The notes under the pieces: generated by a model
What the model was told of the DNA's origin: nothing
The model's input: only the letters and a program-made list of their open reading frames with translations
The model's database searches: none
Shown: one piece after another, positions 49,496-53,042 of the stretch
Numbering within the stretch: the first letter of the stretch is position 1
How the letters are laid out: each line of letters starts with the position of its first letter
From: an uncultured archaeon
GTDB lineage: Archaea; Thermoplasmatota; Thermoplasmata; Thermoplasmatales; Thermoplasmataceae
Direction: 5' to 3'
NCBI GenBank assembly: GCA_000965745.1
Contig: CP009479.1
Location: forward strand, 512,001 to 576,000
Length of the DNA: 64,000 bases
Made by a program: the position numbers and the translations under genes

Positions 49496-49735
49496 TCACC
49501 TCGTCCTTTTCGAAACTATTCTTATCTCTACTTTGTAGACATCATTTTCCTCAGTGATGTTGAGTAGCTCATTCTTGGTCCTCTCGCACCAAGCCTTAGT
49601 ATCCGCTTTCACTCCCGGATCGGTAGCAAGAAGTTCTATCACATCTCCATTGCTGGATTCCCTGTAAGCCCTTATCAGATCGGTAATAGGGCCGGGGCAG
49701 GAAGTACCCCGGCTGTCCACCTTCAGAGTAGTCAT
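49496..49735 (-). CDS. tusA: TusA-family sulfur carrier
   Basis: DSRGTSCPGP, ATDPG, WC. Confidence 0.9.
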   Translation of the reverse strand: MTTLKVDSRGTSCPGPITDLIRAYRESSNGDVIELLATDPGVKADTKAWCERTKNELLNITEENDVYKVEIRIVSKRTR

Positions 49736-49746
49736 TCTTAACACCC

Positions 49747-50178
49747 TTAGATGAAGATTACCTCTCTGTCTTCGCACATCTGCAGAAATGCTGCTGCCCC
49801 AACAACATCATCAACAATCGGGTCAAGATCATTCTTCGTGTCTATCTTGAATGCGCCGGCCATCATTGAGCAGACATAGACCTTTACATCCCCCATTTCC
49901 TTGGCTTCTTTGAGCATATCGTACCAGGATGGTGCTTTCATCTCCTCCATTCCCTTCATTAGATCCGGGACAAGGTCCTCAAATTCCTTCGGCATTCTGT
50001 TAACCTTCTTGTATCCGTCTTTTCTGAATCCCTGAATTGCCCACCCTGTCACAAATATAGATACAGGCATCTCGAGATTAACCGCCGACTGTGTCAATAC
50101 ACCCAGCGGAATGAACTTATCCGCTGTTCCTGAGAACATTACAAAGTTTAGGCCTTTTTTTGCCATAGAGTCCACCAT
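49747..50178 (-). CDS. DsrE/DsrF-like sulfur relay protein
   Basis: IFVTGWA, VYVCSM, VGAAAF; operonic with tusA and sqr. Confidence 0.88.
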   Translation of the reverse strand: MVDSMAKKGLNFVMFSGTADKFIPLGVLTQSAVNLEMPVSIFVTGWAIQGFRKDGYKKVNRMPKEFEDLVPDLMKGMEEMKAPSWYDMLKEAKEMGDVKVYVCSMMAGAFKIDTKNDLDPIVDDVVGAAAFLQMCEDREVIFI

Positions 50179-50268
50179 AAAACTAGTTCCAGAAATCTAT
50201 TAATCTGGGCACCTTATGGTTAACGTACCGTGCAGGGTTCCACCGCTAACATTCCTGCATGATGGCTT

Positions 50269-51420
50269 CTATGAAAAAAGTTCTTTCGACACTCCTTTCA
50301 GCCTATCCTCCCTAATTAATTTTACCGTGTCCTTGAGTTCCTTAGTCTGTCGGGGTTTACTTGCCCTTGCAGACATAGCCTTCATCTTCTTCTCTGTCAG
50401 TGCATCAACGTGATCAACGAATTCAACACCCCTGGAAAGCATTGTCCATATGATCTCCAGAAGCTTCCGGGCAACTGCAACAATAGCCCTCTTCATGCCA
50501 ACACGTCTGACAATGCTGAGATACTTCTTCTTCATCCTTCCGGAGTACTTGATGATGTGATGCGCTGCATTCACGAGGATGAAGCGTATCATGGAAGGTC
50601 CGTGCTTCGTTATATGACCACGGTAATCAGTTCCTCCCGACTGGTCCTGTTTCGGCACCAGGCCGGCATAGGATGCAAGCTTCTCCTTAGATTCGAAGCG
50701 TGATACATCATCGATCTCTGAGACGATTGCAGCAGCTGAATAGACATTTATCCCGGGGATTGTCATGAGCAGCTTCACGTCGTTCCTTTCATGGCACATT
50801 CTTGCGATCTCGTCCTCCATTGTTGATTCCCGATCCTTCAGCTCCCTTATCCTTTCAATCATGTCTGAAACGATTATCCTGTCTGATGCACTCATCTTTT
50901 CAGAGGATCTCTCAATCTCACTGAGGCCACGCTTCCCGAAGATATCCGTGGCATCTATGGAGATGCCGTATCTTCCCAGTACAGCATGAACGCGGTTCTT
51001 TATCTCCGTGACCGCATCGCCCAGGGATTTCCTGTACCTGACTATGGAGCGTAGGTCATCTGCCTCCTTTGATGGCAGGTGCACTTCCGGCAATTCTCCC
51101 AGTCTCAGGAGCTTAGCTAGCTTGTATGAATCTTCCTTATCGTTCTTCTTCGAGGTGTTGAAGATCAGTGAAAGCTTCACAGGATCTGCCATGTGCACGG
51201 AGAATCCCATGTCCCTCAGCATCCTGGTGCAGTACTTTCCTGCGGTGGACACTTCCAACGCAATCTCAGGTTCCAGGTAAAGATACCGTTCCATGAACAT
51301 ATTCCAGGAATCGGTGTCATTGCCCATCCTGAACTGCTGTTCAATTGTGCCGCCATTTCCCATTTCCGTAACATACACGCTATTTTTATGTACGTCGCAT
51401 CCAATATAGATTACAACCAC
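50269..51420 (-). CDS. IS110 DEDD recombinase
   Basis: GCDVHK, ALE, KKNDKED, LMTIPGI, YAGLVP..DQSGG (Ser), AVARKL. Confidence 0.95.
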   Translation of the reverse strand: MVVIYIGCDVHKNSVYVTEMGNGGTIEQQFRMGNDTDSWNMFMERYLYLEPEIALEVSTAGKYCTRMLRDMGFSVHMADPVKLSLIFNTSKKNDKEDSYKLAKLLRLGELPEVHLPSKEADDLRSIVRYRKSLGDAVTEIKNRVHAVLGRYGISIDATDIFGKRGLSEIERSSEKMSASDRIIVSDMIERIRELKDRESTMEDEIARMCHERNDVKLLMTIPGINVYSAAAIVSEIDDVSRFESKEKLASYAGLVPKQDQSGGTDYRGHITKHGPSMIRFILVNAAHHIIKYSGRMKKKYLSIVRRVGMKRAIVAVARKLLEIIWTMLSRGVEFVDHVDALTEKKMKAMSARASKPRQTKELKDTVKLIREDRLKGVSKELFS

Positions 51421-51625
51421 CTCCTATGTGGTATGTGAGAGTTTAAAGTCGGAGAATGCTCGACAGTCTTCTATTCACCCTTGTTTCAGGGTAGTATGTC
51501 GAGACGAAGGGCAGCAAATCTCGGGTACGATCTCACAGATCAAGCCATCATACTGCTGCCACTCCGACTCTCACGCTATCATCGTCATGATAGCGTGGAC
51601 AAAAGAGCTTTTTTCATTGACATCT
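50271..51625 (-). mobile_element. IS110-family insertion sequence (~1355 bp)
   Basis: TCT core at both junctions (50268-70, 51623-25); subterminal inverted repeats atgaaaaaag (50271-80) / cttttttcat (51608-17) extending imperfectly to ~22 bp; structured upstream non-coding region. Confidence 0.9.
51445..51597 (-). ncRNA. IS110 bridge RNA candidate
   Basis: 5' 11-bp hairpin, closing stem, two stem-internal loop-stem arms; loop AUGAUGGCUU (51551-51542) equals insertion flank 50259-50268. Confidence 0.82.
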
Positions 51626-51905
51626 CCAATAAGCGTGCATCGAGAGAATATGCCTGAACTGGCGAAACGGTTTTACAGGTTTTTAAAATGATTTGATGAG
51701 GGTCAGCAAAAAAAACCCAATTGCAGAAATCCTCTTGTTTTCCATTATATATCACTTCCCACATACTCTTGGCTTTTTCGCTTGTTGTGAGAAGGGTTTT
51801 TTTTCCTTCAACGGGATAGTATAATGGCCTATGTAGGCTAGTCTTAATTCAGGTCCCTTTCAATCTCCCGAATTAAGTATTTATCTTTGAACCTACTAAC
51901 TGTTT

Positions 51906-53042
51906 GTGCGTGACGCGATAGTGGTTGGTGCCGGTCCATCAGGCTCCTACCTTTCATACCTTCTTTCGAAGCTGGGCTATGATGTCCTGAATCTCGAGGA
52001 GCACCAGGAGATCGGTAAACCGGTGGAGTGCACCGGGCTGGTCTCCGAGAGGGTTTTCAGCTATGTTAAGAGCAATTCAAGAATAAATTCCGTAACCGGT
52101 GCAAATGTTTTCTTCCCGAACGGAAGAAGTGTTCACGTCGAGAAGCCCGAAAGAACAATAGTCATAGAGAGAGACACGTTCGATCGTGATGTTTCTGCAA
52201 TGGCCATATCTGCAGGTGCTGACGTTAAGATTGATGCCAGGGTGCAATCTGTCAAGACCGGGAGCGATGGAGTTACAATAAAGTACAAGGAAGGCGGCCA
52301 GATAAAGGAAGAGAGGGCAAAAATCATAGCAGGTGCAGATGGCGTCAACAGCATGGTCAGAAAGGAGCTTTACGGGGTGAAGTCAAAGAGGATAGTGTCC
52401 ACCTACCAGGTAGATTCAGCGACCCCAATGGAAGACCAGGACAGCGTGGAAGTGTATCTCGGTTCGGAATCCACAAGAGGCTTCTTTGGTTGGGCAACTC
52501 CGGCAGGGGAACTGACAAGGATTGGAGTTGGGACATACGGAATCTCTCCATTCAAGTACTTCGGCAGAATCAGCAAAAGATTTCCGAAGGACAGAATTAT
52601 AGGCGTCACAGGAGGGGCTATACCAATCGCGTACCTCAAGAAGACATACGGGTACAGGAACCTCCTGGTAGGCGATGCTGGAGGCATTGTCAAGCCTTTG
52701 ACCGGTGGTGGGATATACACTGGTGTTGTTTCAGCAAAGCATGCAGCGAAAACGCTTAACAATGCGCTTGAAAAGGAAGATTTCTCAGAGAAGCTCATGT
52801 CCCAGTATCAGAAGGACTGGAAGAGAGAGCTTGGGAGGGAGCTCTGGATTGACGGCAAAATTCAGAAGTATTTCTCATCCCTGAGCGACAAGACCCTGAA
52901 TATGATATATGAGGCAGTATCCAGGAAGAGGATGGTAGAACTGATTAATCACATTGGAGACATAGATTACCCGTCAACTGTTGTCCTGTCACTGGCTGTG
53001 AGAAACCCGAGACTGCTTATGAGACTGATAACAAGAACCTGA
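51906..53042 (+). CDS. Geranylgeranyl reductase family flavoprotein
   Basis: GAGPSG, GKPVECTG, GADG, VGDAGG.VKPLTGGGI; PxxYxWxFP is divergent (GFFGWATP). Confidence 0.88.
   Translation: MRDAIVVGAGPSGSYLSYLLSKLGYDVLNLEEHQEIGKPVECTGLVSERVFSYVKSNSRINSVTGANVFFPNGRSVHVEKPERTIVIERDTFDRDVSAMAISAGADVKIDARVQSVKTGSDGVTIKYKEGGQIKEERAKIIAGADGVNSMVRKELYGVKSKRIVSTYQVDSATPMEDQDSVEVYLGSESTRGFFGWATPAGELTRIGVGTYGISPFKYFGRISKRFPKDRIIGVTGGAIPIAYLKKTYGYRNLLVGDAGGIVKPLTGGGIYTGVVSAKHAAKTLNNALEKEDFSEKLMSQYQKDWKRELGRELWIDGKIQKYFSSLSDKTLNMIYEAVSRKRMVELINHIGDIDYPSTVVLSLAVRNPRLLMRLITRT

What the first reader, a model, noticed from the sequence alone, without database searches (positions are those of the whole stretch)
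50259..51627. Archaeal IS110 with a readable bridge RNA whose guide matches its insertion site
Seen: upstream of the recombinase the - strand folds into an 11-bp hairpin (51572-97), a 10-bp closing stem and two stem/internal-loop/stem arms. Arm 1 loop AUGAUGGCUU is identical (10/10) to the DNA abutting the far end of the element (50259-68), and its opposite side GAGA can pair with TCTC of the rebuilt empty site (atgatggct-TCT-ccaat). Arm 2 has AUAGA, complementary to TCTAT of the predicted circle junction (gaca-TCT-atg); this 5-nt match is weak alone. G-U pairs favour the - strand. Established: IS110 recombinases use bispecific bridge RNAs. Notable: the RNA is upstream of the ORF yet the element has IS1111-like subterminal IRs and a 3-nt shared core. 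Inference: a compact reprogrammable recombinase from an archaeon.
Basis: partly seen in the sequence, partly recalled or inferred. Interest (0 to 1): 0.78.

Follow-up and report, generated by a model that had tools for sequence, protein, structure and literature searches.

The report
Archaeal insertion sequence with bridge RNA
This is an intact, apparently recently mobile IS110/IS1111-type insertion sequence of a Thermoplasmatales archaeon. Its upstream structured leader has the anatomy of a bridge (seek) RNA, and its loops spell out the element's own insertion site and its own ends. That makes it a well-documented new member of a known kind, not a new mechanism.

Summary
The finding is real. 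Window 50268-51623 (minus strand) is a 1356-bp IS110-family element. It has a DEDD/Ser recombinase ORF of 383 aa and, upstream of it, a ~165-nt structured leader: a 5' hairpin, a closing helix and two stem/internal-loop/stem arms.

Evidence:
- Across 66 Thermoplasmata homologues the stems covary, while the arm-1 loops are hypervariable and track each element's own flanks.
- A 98%-identical copy at a second site (L099) matches both arm-1 guides. A third site appears in a metagenome run.
- Empty alleles exist for the window's site (one 58-nt metagenome contig) and for the third site (the window's own genome).

- The shared core is 2 nt (AG, which is CT on the + strand), not 3.
- The right end is ...CTTTTTTCAT-AGA.
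- The arm-2 match is 7 nt (AUAGA-AG), not 5.
- The G-U argument for the strand is weak.

The guide order (top-strand complement first) and the 10-13-bp subterminal repeats are IS1111-like. The RNA, however, lies upstream of the ORF, a known exception (ISHvo9 in Durrant et al. Table S5).

No RNA or biochemical data exist. The scan had already found a relic of this RNA family in another genome (e1-3145691).

The parts
51626..51630 (-). Left target flank (LT), ATTGG on the minus strand
   Evidence: Flank up to the empty-site joint. Only 2 of 5 positions match the arm-1 3' guide ACCCG. At the second insertion (L099) the flank is ACCCG, 5 of 5.
51624..51625 (-). Left copy of the 2-nt core AG (CT on the + strand)
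   Evidence: The joint 50265|51624 has 2 letters that fit either side. The flank unitig starts exactly at 51624. All family members have AG here.
51618..51623 (-). Left terminal extension ATGTCA (first bases of the element; the donor right half in IS621 terms)
   Evidence: The start of similarity among G013 copies and with L099 lies here. Its first 5 nt covary with the arm-2 5' side GACAU, and its first 2 nt with the AU that follows the core in the arm-1 3' loop.
51608..51617 (-). Left subterminal inverted repeat ATGAAAAAAG
   Evidence: It is the reverse complement of CTTTTTTCAT at 50271-50280. The repeat is 13 bp in the G013 homologue and conserved in 66 homologues.
51572..51597 (-). 5' hairpin of the leader (11 bp, loop GACG)
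   Evidence: Six of its pairs show compensatory changes in 10-30 of 66 sequences.
51435..51600 (-). Candidate bridge (seek) RNA, ~165 nt; the ends are not mapped
   Evidence: MFE -67.1 kcal/mol, z -6.2. The family structure is 90.1% paired, against 33-42% when partners are slid. There are 290 double-change cells against 31-67 in the slid controls, and 0 of 500 shuffles reach the observed value. No Rfam family matches.
51542..51553 (-). Arm-1 (target-binding loop) 5' side GUAUGAUGGCUU; it pairs with the ORF-sense strand of core + right target
   Evidence: Its reverse complement is A-AG-CCAUCAUAC. The window flank is AG-CCATCATGC (9 of 9 with one wobble), L099 has AG-CCATCGTAG and the third site AG-CTTTCATAC. 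Cognate Smith-Waterman scores have median 8 against 4 for non-cognate pairs.
51517..51528 (-). Arm-1 3' side GUACCCGAGAUU = left-target guide ACCCG + core AG + 2-nt handshake-like AU
   Evidence: L099's left junction ACCCG-AG-AT matches 9 of 9. A contiguous run of >=4 nt from the core occurs in 35% of cognate pairs against 0.4% of non-cognate pairs. The 2 nt after the core equal the first 2 nt of the element in 58 of 69 elements, across four states.
51492..51500 (-). Arm-2 (donor-binding loop) 5' side; GACAU is complementary to the element's first bases ATGTC
   Evidence: Five covarying states occur in the family: GACAU/ATGTC, GACAC/GTGTC, GAUUU/AAATC, GACCU/AGGTC and GACUU/AAGTC.
51466..51477 (-). 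Arm-2 3' side UGAAUAGAAGAC; AUAGA-AG has the same sense as the right end ATAGA + core AG
   Evidence: It matches CATAGA-AG at 50266-50273. The family variant AUAGGAG goes with CATAGG-AG (8 elements). The next 2 nt do not covary with the right target (p = 0.31).
50269..51420 (-). Recombinase ORF, 383 aa, GTG start; the stop TAG lies at 50269-50271, inside the right end
   Evidence: Pfam PF01548 (1e-17) and PF02371 (2e-24). E56, D94, D97 and S261 align to catalytic residues of ISCro4/IS621 and are invariant in A1. D9 sits in the IGCDVHK motif.
50271..50280 (-). Right subterminal inverted repeat CTTTTTTCAT (lies within the ORF's last codons)
50268..50270 (-). Right terminal extension AGA (last 3 nt of the element)
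   Evidence: The empty-site joint and the unitig break after 50267 place these bases inside the element. G013 copies share sequence through CATAGA-AG.
50266..50267 (-). Right copy of the core AG
50257..50265 (-). Right target flank (RT), CCATCATGC
   Evidence: It is complementary to the arm-1 5' guide at 9 of 9 positions, one of them a U:G wobble.

Best explanation
Window 50268-51623 is a complete IS110-family insertion sequence of a Thermoplasmatales archaeon.

**Proposed mechanism (inferred).** The leader upstream of the recombinase gene is transcribed in the ORF sense into a ~165-nt bridge (seek) RNA, which the DEDD/Ser recombinase binds.
- Arm 1 is the target-binding loop. Its 5' side (GUAUGAUGG-CU) pairs with the ORF-sense strand of AG-CCATCATAC on the right of the insertion point. 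Its 3' side (ACCCG-AG) pairs with the other strand on the left. The next two bases (AU) can pair with the incoming element end, like the handshake guide of IS621.
- Arm 2 is the donor-binding loop. Its 3' side (AUAGA-AG) and 5' side (GACAU) read the two ends of the element as joined in a circle: ...CTTTTTTCATAGA-AG-ATGTCA....
- Recombination at the shared AG/CT dinucleotide inserts the circle, leaving one core copy at each end.

**Specified target and affinity.** The guides specify ACCCG-AG-CCATCATAC. The window's copy sits at a site that matches only the right half. The guide polarity and the long subterminal repeats are of the IS1111 type, with the RNA gene moved to the upstream side.

**Shown versus inferred.** Shown are the anatomy, the boundaries, the structure covariation, the guide-flank and guide-end covariation, and polymorphic insertions. 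Inferred are transcription, RNA binding, the circle intermediate and catalysis.
For: - **Protein.** IS110 Pfam domains are present. Catalytic E56/D94/D97/S261 align to solved ISCro4/IS621 and are invariant in relatives.
- **Boundaries.** An empty-site contig skips 50266-51623 with a 2-nt ambiguity, and unitig breaks fall at 50267 and 51624. Three G013 copies diverge exactly outside AG...CATAGA-AG.
- **Second insertion.** L099 is 98.2% identical over 1366 nt and has flanks ACCCG-AG | AG-CCATCGTAG.
- **Third insertion.** A loose end in run X4 matches 30 of 30 to G000:C1:1767953 (ATCCG-AG-CTTTCATAC), which is empty in the window's own genome.
- **Right guide across the family.** Among 41 elements the cognate Smith-Waterman score is >=8 in 51%, against 1.0% of 1566 non-cognate pairs. 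The anchored 9-nt score is >=7 in 41% against 2.6%.
- **Left guide.** A run of >=4 nt from the core occurs in 35% of cognate pairs against 0.4% of non-cognate pairs.
- **Donor guides.** They covary with both element ends, and handshake-like bases match in 58 of 69 elements.
- **Structure.** 43 pairs are 90.1% paired, with 290 compensatory cells against 31-67 in slid controls and 0 of 500 shuffles as high.
- **Precedents.** The guide geometry matches the published rules: 3' ends of the guides at the core, and handshake bases after the core on a 3' guide (PMC11208160, PMC11208158). The guide order is that of IS1111 seekRNAs (PMC11187229).
Against: - There is no transcript evidence of any kind. 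No listed sequencing run is on record as RNA.
- The strand cannot be decided from structure alone.
- The arm-1 and arm-2 5' guides behave differently at the core. The arm-1 5' guide covers it (CU), but the arm-2 5' side does not (GACAU-AC).
- No handshake signal was found in arm 2.
- The window's own left flank matches the left guide poorly (2 of 5).
- A subset of homologues has a right junction 1 nt shorter than the model predicts (L061, L107, L106).
- The empty-site allele rests on one 58-nt Logan contig of depth 8.
- Related sequences are not independent, so the covariation counts overstate the number of events.
- No circle junction was seen in the four runs.
Confidence: 0.88

Rival explanations
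1. It is the same kind of element, but this copy is a stranded, no longer mobile insertion. It sits at a half-matching site and the RNA is no longer made, so it is a fossil rather than a working system.
For: It is the only full copy in a complete 2.23-Mb genome. The left flank matches the guide at 2 of 5 positions. A decayed 60-nt left-end relic lies elsewhere in the genome. The best-matching sites in this genome (IS3 ends) are unoccupied. No RNA data exist.
Against: The ORF is full length with all catalytic residues. The RNA scaffold has no disruptive changes relative to 65 relatives. In related populations the same element (98% identical) sits at two other sites, and the window's site is also found empty, which indicates recent movement.
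Confidence: 0.07
2. The conserved leader acts at the DNA level or as an mRNA leader, for example as folded single-stranded DNA ends recognised by the transposase or as a translational control element. The loop-flank matches would then reflect DNA-DNA recognition or target preference imposed by the protein.
For: Both strands fold equally well. The stem covariation is nearly as compatible with the opposite strand: 88.3% against 90.1%. The structure ends right at the ribosome-binding site and start codon.
Against: For this recombinase family, RNA guidance is established by experiment and structure (PMC11208160, PMC11208158, PMC11187229). Only the ORF-sense RNA puts the 3' ends of all core-reading guides at the core, as in the solved IS621 complex. 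G-U cells outnumber A-C cells 142 to 93. Protein-imposed preference would not make loops and flanks change together in 41 elements.
Confidence: 0.04
3. The loop-flank identity in the window is a chance match in an ordinary IS leader.
For: A single 10-mer repeat in 64 kb occurred in 2 of 100 shuffles.
Against: The match lies exactly at the element boundary. It recurs at two further insertions. The same relation holds family-wide against non-cognate controls.
Confidence: 0.01

Closest known systems
IS621 bridge RNA and recombinase (IS110 group; Durrant et al. 2024 PMC11208160; Hiraizumi et al. 2024 PMC11208158)
   Same: - A DEDD/Ser recombinase.
- The RNA lies in the left end, upstream of the ORF.
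- The RNA has a 5' stem-loop followed by a target-binding and a donor-binding internal loop.
- The core is a dinucleotide, CT (AG on the ORF-sense strand here).
- Guides run 5'->3' towards the core.
- Two bases after the core on the 3' target guide match the donor (handshake guide).
   Different: - The polarity relative to the ORF is mirrored. [quoted passage not shown]
- The subterminal inverted repeats are long (10-13 bp) rather than 2-3 bp.
- The two arms are enclosed by a closing helix.
- Protein similarity is weak (PDB 8wt6 E 9e-7, C-terminal domain only).
IS1111-family seekRNA elements (ISEc11, IS4321/IS5075, IS1111; Siddiquee et al. 2024 PMC11187229; Partridge & Hall 2003)
   Same: - Subterminal inverted repeats of about 11-13 bp, with a 3-bp extension on the right and 6-7 bp on the left.
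[quoted passage not shown]
- Insertion is orientation-specific.
- The best natural target found here is the terminal inverted repeat of another transposable element (an IS3-family IRL). IS4321/IS5075 likewise target Tn21-family inverted repeats.
   Different: - The non-coding region and RNA lie upstream of the transposase, not downstream, so the arrangement looks like a circular permutation of the usual IS1111 order. The published surveys mention a few such exceptions.
- The host is an archaeon.
- IS4321 transposase is only 25.6% identical.
ISHvo9/ISHvo10/ISH18 of haloarchaea (ISfinder; Durrant et al. Supplementary Table 5)
   Same: - It is the closest named relative of the recombinase (31.7% identity over 334 aa, E 5e-45).
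- It is listed as IS1111 group with the bridge RNA detected in the LEFT end, the same unusual combination as here.
- It has a long upstream non-coding region.
   Different: It belongs to a different archaeal class. No recognisable similarity of the leader sequence was established here.
Thermoplasmata bridge-RNA relic found earlier in this scan (e1-3145691)
   Same: It is the same RNA family (10 of 71 short words shared). It was judged a bridge/seek RNA of a Thermoplasmata IS110/IS1111 element.
   Different: That copy has a truncated recombinase gene. The present one is complete, and its boundaries, empty sites and additional insertions have been identified.

Membership tests
IS110 family (DEDD bridge recombinase elements) | [quoted passage not shown] | tested here: met
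   E 1e-17 and 2e-24, both above the curated cut-offs.
IS110 family (DEDD bridge recombinase elements) | Catalytic Asp/Glu/Asp/Asp plus the Ser nucleophile | tested here: met
   E56, D94, D97 and S261 align with the corresponding residues of ISCro4 and are invariant in A1. D9 lies in IGCDVHK, assigned by motif comparison with IS621's IGIDTAK in Table S5.
IS110 family (DEDD bridge recombinase elements) | Site-specific insertion at a short core shared by donor and target, without a conventional target-site duplication | tested here: met
   A 2-nt AG core lies at both junctions. The empty site has a single AG, and the third site agrees.
IS110 family (DEDD bridge recombinase elements) | Non-coding end encodes a structured RNA with loops complementary to target and to donor | tested here: met
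   Structure covariation; target guides; donor guides.
IS110 family (DEDD bridge recombinase elements) | The RNA is expressed, binds the recombinase and is required for recombination | not testable with these tools
   No RNA run holds the stretch. This needs bench work.
IS1111 group | Subterminal inverted repeats of 7-17 bp with short asymmetric terminal extensions | tested here: met
   ATGAAAAAAG/CTTTTTTCAT is 10 bp (13 bp in G013). The right extension is AGA (3 nt). The left extension is ATGTCA (6 nt), or 5 nt in most relatives.
IS1111 group | Guide RNA gene in the long right end, downstream of the transposase | tested here: not met
   The RNA lies upstream, and the ORF runs to 1 nt from the right end. 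The literature notes exceptions (PMC11187229; ISHvo9 in Table S5).
IS1111 group | In the RNA, the complement of the top strand precedes the match to the bottom strand | tested here: met
   The arm-1 5' side is complementary to the ORF-sense strand of the right flank. The 3' side has the same sense as the left flank. The rule is from PMC11187229.
IS1111 group | Transposase clusters with IS1111-group transposases | tested here: inconclusive
   The closest named relative, ISHvo9, is labelled IS1111 group. IS4321 gives E 8e-22, and IS621 gives E 9e-7 against a different database. No tree with ISfinder references could be built.
IS110 group sensu stricto (IS621-like) | 5' sides of the loops pair with the bottom strand (left target/left donor), 3' sides with the top strand | tested here: not met
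   The arrangement is mirrored relative to the ORF.
IS110 group sensu stricto (IS621-like) | Bridge RNA in a long left end; only 2-3-bp subterminal repeats | tested here: inconclusive
   The left-end location is met. The short-repeat feature is not met (10-13 bp).
Rfam RNA families | Match to a curated covariance model | tested here: not met
   No hit at E <= 1 in 49500-52500.

The most novel reading that the evidence does not exclude
The Thermoplasmata elements may form a distinct, circularly permuted lineage of IS1111-type bridge recombinases. In it the RNA gene has moved upstream while the IS1111 guide polarity, a CT core and a target-loop handshake guide are kept. Its natural preferred targets would be the terminal inverted repeats of other insertion sequences (IS-on-IS parasitism). 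If active, it would be the first archaeal, acidophile-derived programmable bridge recombinase, and a natural case of half-matched insertion.
Probability: 0.3. Interest if true: 0.6.

Novelty: new member of a known kind. Interest (0 to 1): 0.42.

Why it matters
Bridge (seek) RNA-guided recombinases have been characterised only from bacteria.

This locus gives an unusually complete natural record for an archaeal element: exact ends, a 2-nt core, a 16-nt specified target, three insertion sites, and empty alleles for two of them. It also gives a 66-member alignment in which the target guides, the donor guides and a handshake-like dinucleotide all covary with DNA.

It shows that IS1111-type guide polarity can coexist with an upstream RNA gene. 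It also suggests that the terminal repeat of an IS3-family element is the preferred target.

For tool builders it offers a compact 383-aa recombinase plus a ~165-nt RNA from a presumably acidophilic archaeon, to judge from the lineage, with a clear prediction of which nucleotides to reprogram. It does not change the known mechanism.

Tried and rejected
- **Rfam.** A scan of 49500-52500 at E <= 1 found nothing.
- **Empty site in same-genus genomes.** The two flanking genes are 6.3 kb apart in G002 and on different contigs in G001 and G003. The intergenic DNA does not align, so no empty site could be read there.
- **Own-genome copies.** There is only one full copy, plus a 60-nt left-end relic.
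- **RNA evidence.** No RNA holder is listed among the public runs, so expression could not be examined.
- **Circle junction.** No back-joining contig appeared in the four runs laid. A 41-nt skip (51426|51468) in run X4, with a 25-nt side, was not pursued.
- **First register.** My first model had core AGA (or AG directly after CAT), with the following AAG as target plus an arm-2 handshake. I abandoned it after the empty-site contig. The arm-2 handshake idea was then tested in the new register and rejected (17 of 41 against 15.2 expected, p = 0.31).
- **Strand from G-U pairs or folding energy.** Inconclusive.
- **IS3 remnant in the window's flanks.** I checked whether the window's flanks are remnants of an IS3 end. 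They show no similarity elsewhere in the genome.
- **Tree against ISfinder references.** Not possible, because the reference sequences are available only as text in a supplement and may not be typed in.
- **RNAalifold on arm 2.** On its own it mis-paired arm 2. The arm-2 helices were supported only when given explicitly, and mostly by conservation: 1 of 7 basal pairs and 2 of 4 distal pairs have compensatory changes.
Full report
**What is at the coordinates.**
The minus strand of 50269-51420 encodes a 383-aa protein with both IS110-family Pfam domains (PF01548 1e-17, PF02371 2e-24). E56, D94, D97 and S261 align with the catalytic Glu/Asp/Asp and the Ser nucleophile of the solved ISCro4 and IS621 recombinases. 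They are invariant in relatives, and D9 sits in the usual IGxDxxK motif.

- an 11-bp hairpin (51597-51572);
- a closing helix UCGGAG/CUCCGA, extended outward by GAGAG/CUCUC;
- arm 1: GGCAGCA / 12-nt loop / GAUC-loop-GAUC / 12-nt loop / UGCUGCC;
- arm 2: CUCGACA / UACUA / CCCU-loop-AGGG / 12-nt loop / UGUCGAG.

The 165-nt stretch folds at -67.1 kcal/mol, z = -6.2 against shuffles. Rfam has no matching family.

**Relatives and structure.**
The genome is a single 2.23-Mb contig and holds one full copy plus a 60-nt relic of a related left end. Relatives at 45-66% protein identity are common in Thermoplasmata and Thermoplasmatales genomes and metagenomes. They include E-plasma, Acidiplasma aeolicum and many MAGs.

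I aligned 66 distinct leaders (A2). The scaffold is highly conserved. Both sides of the arm-1 internal loop are hypervariable.

For the seven-helix structure I specified:
- 90.1% of 2794 cells form standard pairs, against 33-42% when partners are slid by 1-3 columns.
- 290 cells carry compensatory double changes, against 31-67 in the slid controls and 92 +/- 10 in shuffles.
- 0 of 500 shuffles reach the observed value.

The hairpin and the arm-1 basal stem carry most of the covariation. Arm 2 is supported mainly by conservation. RNAalifold on its own recovered the hairpin and arm 1 but not arm 2.

**Boundaries.**
- Three near-identical copies in genome G013 diverge exactly outside AG|ATGTC...CATAGA-AG|.
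- In metagenome run X1, a 58-nt contig (depth 8) joins 50265 to 51624. It skips 1358 nt, with 2 letters that fit either side. The flanking unitigs end at 50267 and start at 51624.
- The empty site is therefore ATGATGG-CT-CCAAT on the + strand, or ATTGG-AG-CCATCAT in the ORF sense.
- The element is 50268-51623 (1356 bp). The shared core is the dinucleotide AG/CT.
- The right end is ...CTTTTTTCAT-AGA and the left end is ATGTCA-ATGAAAAAAG....

The stop codon TAG lies wholly inside the element.

**Guides against DNA.**
The reverse complement of the arm-1 5' loop is A-AG-CCAUCAUAC. The window's right junction reads A-AG-CCATCATGC, which is core plus 9 of 9 with one U:G wobble.

The arm-1 3' loop reads (GU)ACCCG-AG-AU(U). 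The window's left flank, ATTGG-AG, matches only 2 of 5 before the core. The window's insertion is therefore at a half-matching site.

*Second insertion.* Metagenome contig L099 carries the same element (98.2% identity over 1366 nt) at another place. Its flanks are GACCCG-AG|...|AG-CCATCGTAG. Its left junction matches the 3' loop at 9 of 9 positions (ACCCG-AG-AT), and its right flank matches the 5' guide.

*Third insertion.* A loose end in run X4 has the right flank AG-CTTTCATACAT.... This is 30 of 30 identical to G000:C1:1767953-68. There the window's own genome carries the unoccupied site ATCCG-AG-CTTTCATAC.

**Family-wide covariation.**
- *Right guide.* For 41 elements with both ends in hand, the 5' guide against its own right flank scores a median of 8 by local alignment, against 4 for 1566 non-cognate pairs. 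A score >=8 occurs in 51% against 1.0%. Anchored at the core with wobble allowed, >=7 of 9 occurs in 41% against 2.6%.
- *Left guide.* It gives a contiguous run >=4 nt from the core in 35% of cognate pairs against 0.4% of non-cognate pairs.
- *Handshake-like bases.* The two bases after the core in the arm-1 3' loop equal the first two bases of the element in 58 of 69 elements. Four states occur: AU, GU, AA and AC.
- *Arm-2 5' side.* It tracks the element's first five bases: GACAU/ATGTC, GACAC/GTGTC, GAUUU/AAATC, GACCU/AGGTC and GACUU/AAGTC.
- *Arm-2 3' side.* It tracks the right end: AUAGA-AG against AUAGG-AG.
- *No arm-2 handshake.* The two bases after the core in arm 2 do not track the target (p = 0.31).

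These sequences are related, so the counts overstate the number of independent events. Several distinct states exist for each relation, however.

**Mechanism and comparison.**
[quoted passage not shown] All guides include the CT core. Two handshake bases follow the core on the 3' guides (PMC11208160, PMC11208158).

Here every rule holds only if the element is read on the strand opposite to its ORF. The core then becomes CT. The long 5' guide then reads the 'left' target and includes the core. The short 3' guide then reads the 'right' target plus the core plus two donor bases.

Relative to the ORF the arrangement is thus mirrored. That is exactly what Siddiquee et al. report for IS1111-family seekRNAs, where the top-strand complement comes first (PMC11187229).

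The 10-13-bp subterminal repeats, with a 3-nt right extension and a 5-6-nt left extension, also fit IS1111. The RNA gene, however, is upstream, as in the IS110 group. Both surveys mention such exceptions. The closest named relative, ISHvo9 (31.7% identity), is listed as IS1111 group with the bridge RNA in the left end (Table S5).

I therefore file this as an IS110-family element with IS1111-type logic and a permuted gene order. It is a new member of a known kind. An earlier follow-up in this scan reached the same class for a truncated relative in another genome (e1-3145691).

**Strand.**
- Both strands fold equally well (z -6.2 against -6.5).
- Family pairing is 90.1% on the ORF-sense strand against 88.3% on the other.
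- G-U cells number 142 against 93 A-C cells.

The ORF-sense assignment rests on two other points. Only that RNA places the 3' ends of the core-reading guides at the core, with the handshake bases beyond it, as in the solved complex. The structure also lies directly in front of the ORF.

**Target biology.**
The L099 insertion lies 2 nt inside the left terminal repeat of an IS3-family element (TG-ACCCG-AG-CCATCGTAG...). The window's genome has three 1294-bp copies of a 78%-similar IS3 element. It has OrfA with HTH_Tnp_1 and OrfB with rve. Its end reads TGAACCG-AA-CCATCATAGG. That is a near match with a broken core, and it is unoccupied. This recalls IS4321/IS5075, which target the inverted repeats of Tn21-type transposons.

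**Limits.**
- No RNA data exist, and no RNA run is listed.
- No circle junction was seen.
- The empty allele rests on a single short contig.
- Three homologues have right junctions 1 nt shorter than predicted.

Transcription, RNA binding and catalysis are inferred from the bacterial precedents.

Noticed in passing
L002 1500-1560 (G000:C1:1500226-1500284): A 60-nt relic of a related IS110-family left end, 88% identical. It has the core AG, ATGTCAAT, the subterminal repeat and the 11-bp hairpin, and is cut off right after the hairpin. About 430 nt downstream lies an ORF that I took by eye for a mutator/IS256-type transposase; no domain search was run on it.
   Followed up: partly
G000:C1:1789158-1790456, 1530473-1531766, 1919082-1920375 (L178, L179): Three 99.9%-identical copies of a 1294-bp IS3-family element (OrfA HTH_Tnp_1, OrfB rve). 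Its left terminal repeat, TGAACCG-AA-CCATCATAGG, is a near match to the IS110 element's specified target, but with AA in place of the AG core. All three copies are unoccupied. In metagenome contig L099 the homologous IS3 end (ACCCG-AG-CCATCGTAG) carries the IS110 element.
   Followed up: partly
G000:C1:1767953-1767968 (L177, minus strand): An unoccupied site ATCCG-AG-CTTTCATAC in the window's own genome. In run X4 the same sequence is the right flank of a 98%-similar copy of the element, so this is an empty/occupied pair across populations.
   Followed up: yes
L061, L107, L106 right junctions: In three homologues the right junction reads CATAG-AG-GAC... instead of CATAGA-AG-.... That is one A short of what their own arm-2 guide (AUAGA-AG) predicts. 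In these elements the core-reading CU of the arm-1 5' guide abuts the distal stem, without the spacer U seen in the window's RNA. This is unexplained. It may mean that the cut position is measured from the RNA scaffold.
   Followed up: no
L006 / L060 / L062 (E-plasma scaffold), about 2640-3060 of L006: Two different IS110-family elements (61% and 49% identical to the window's recombinase) lie head to head. One is inserted exactly at the left terminus of the other, and its left guide (AGU-AG-AU) matches that junction. Its ORF carries a TAA stop.
   Followed up: partly
window 49747-50178 and 51906-53042 versus G002:C15:21502-28838: The two genes flanking the element are 6.3 kb apart in the closest same-genus genome. 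From reading the translations, without a domain search, they look like a DsrE/F-like protein and a geranylgeranyl-reductase-like flavoprotein. The window's genome therefore differs here by a larger rearrangement or deletion besides the insertion.
   Followed up: no
window 51847-51881: A 35-nt stretch upstream of the reductase gene (aatacttaattcgggagattgaaagggacctgaattaagac region, a hairpin-like palindrome) recurs at 88-91% identity at other places in same-genus genomes G002 and G003. Loose ends in run X4 start here as well. It may be a small repeated element or a terminator.
   Followed up: no
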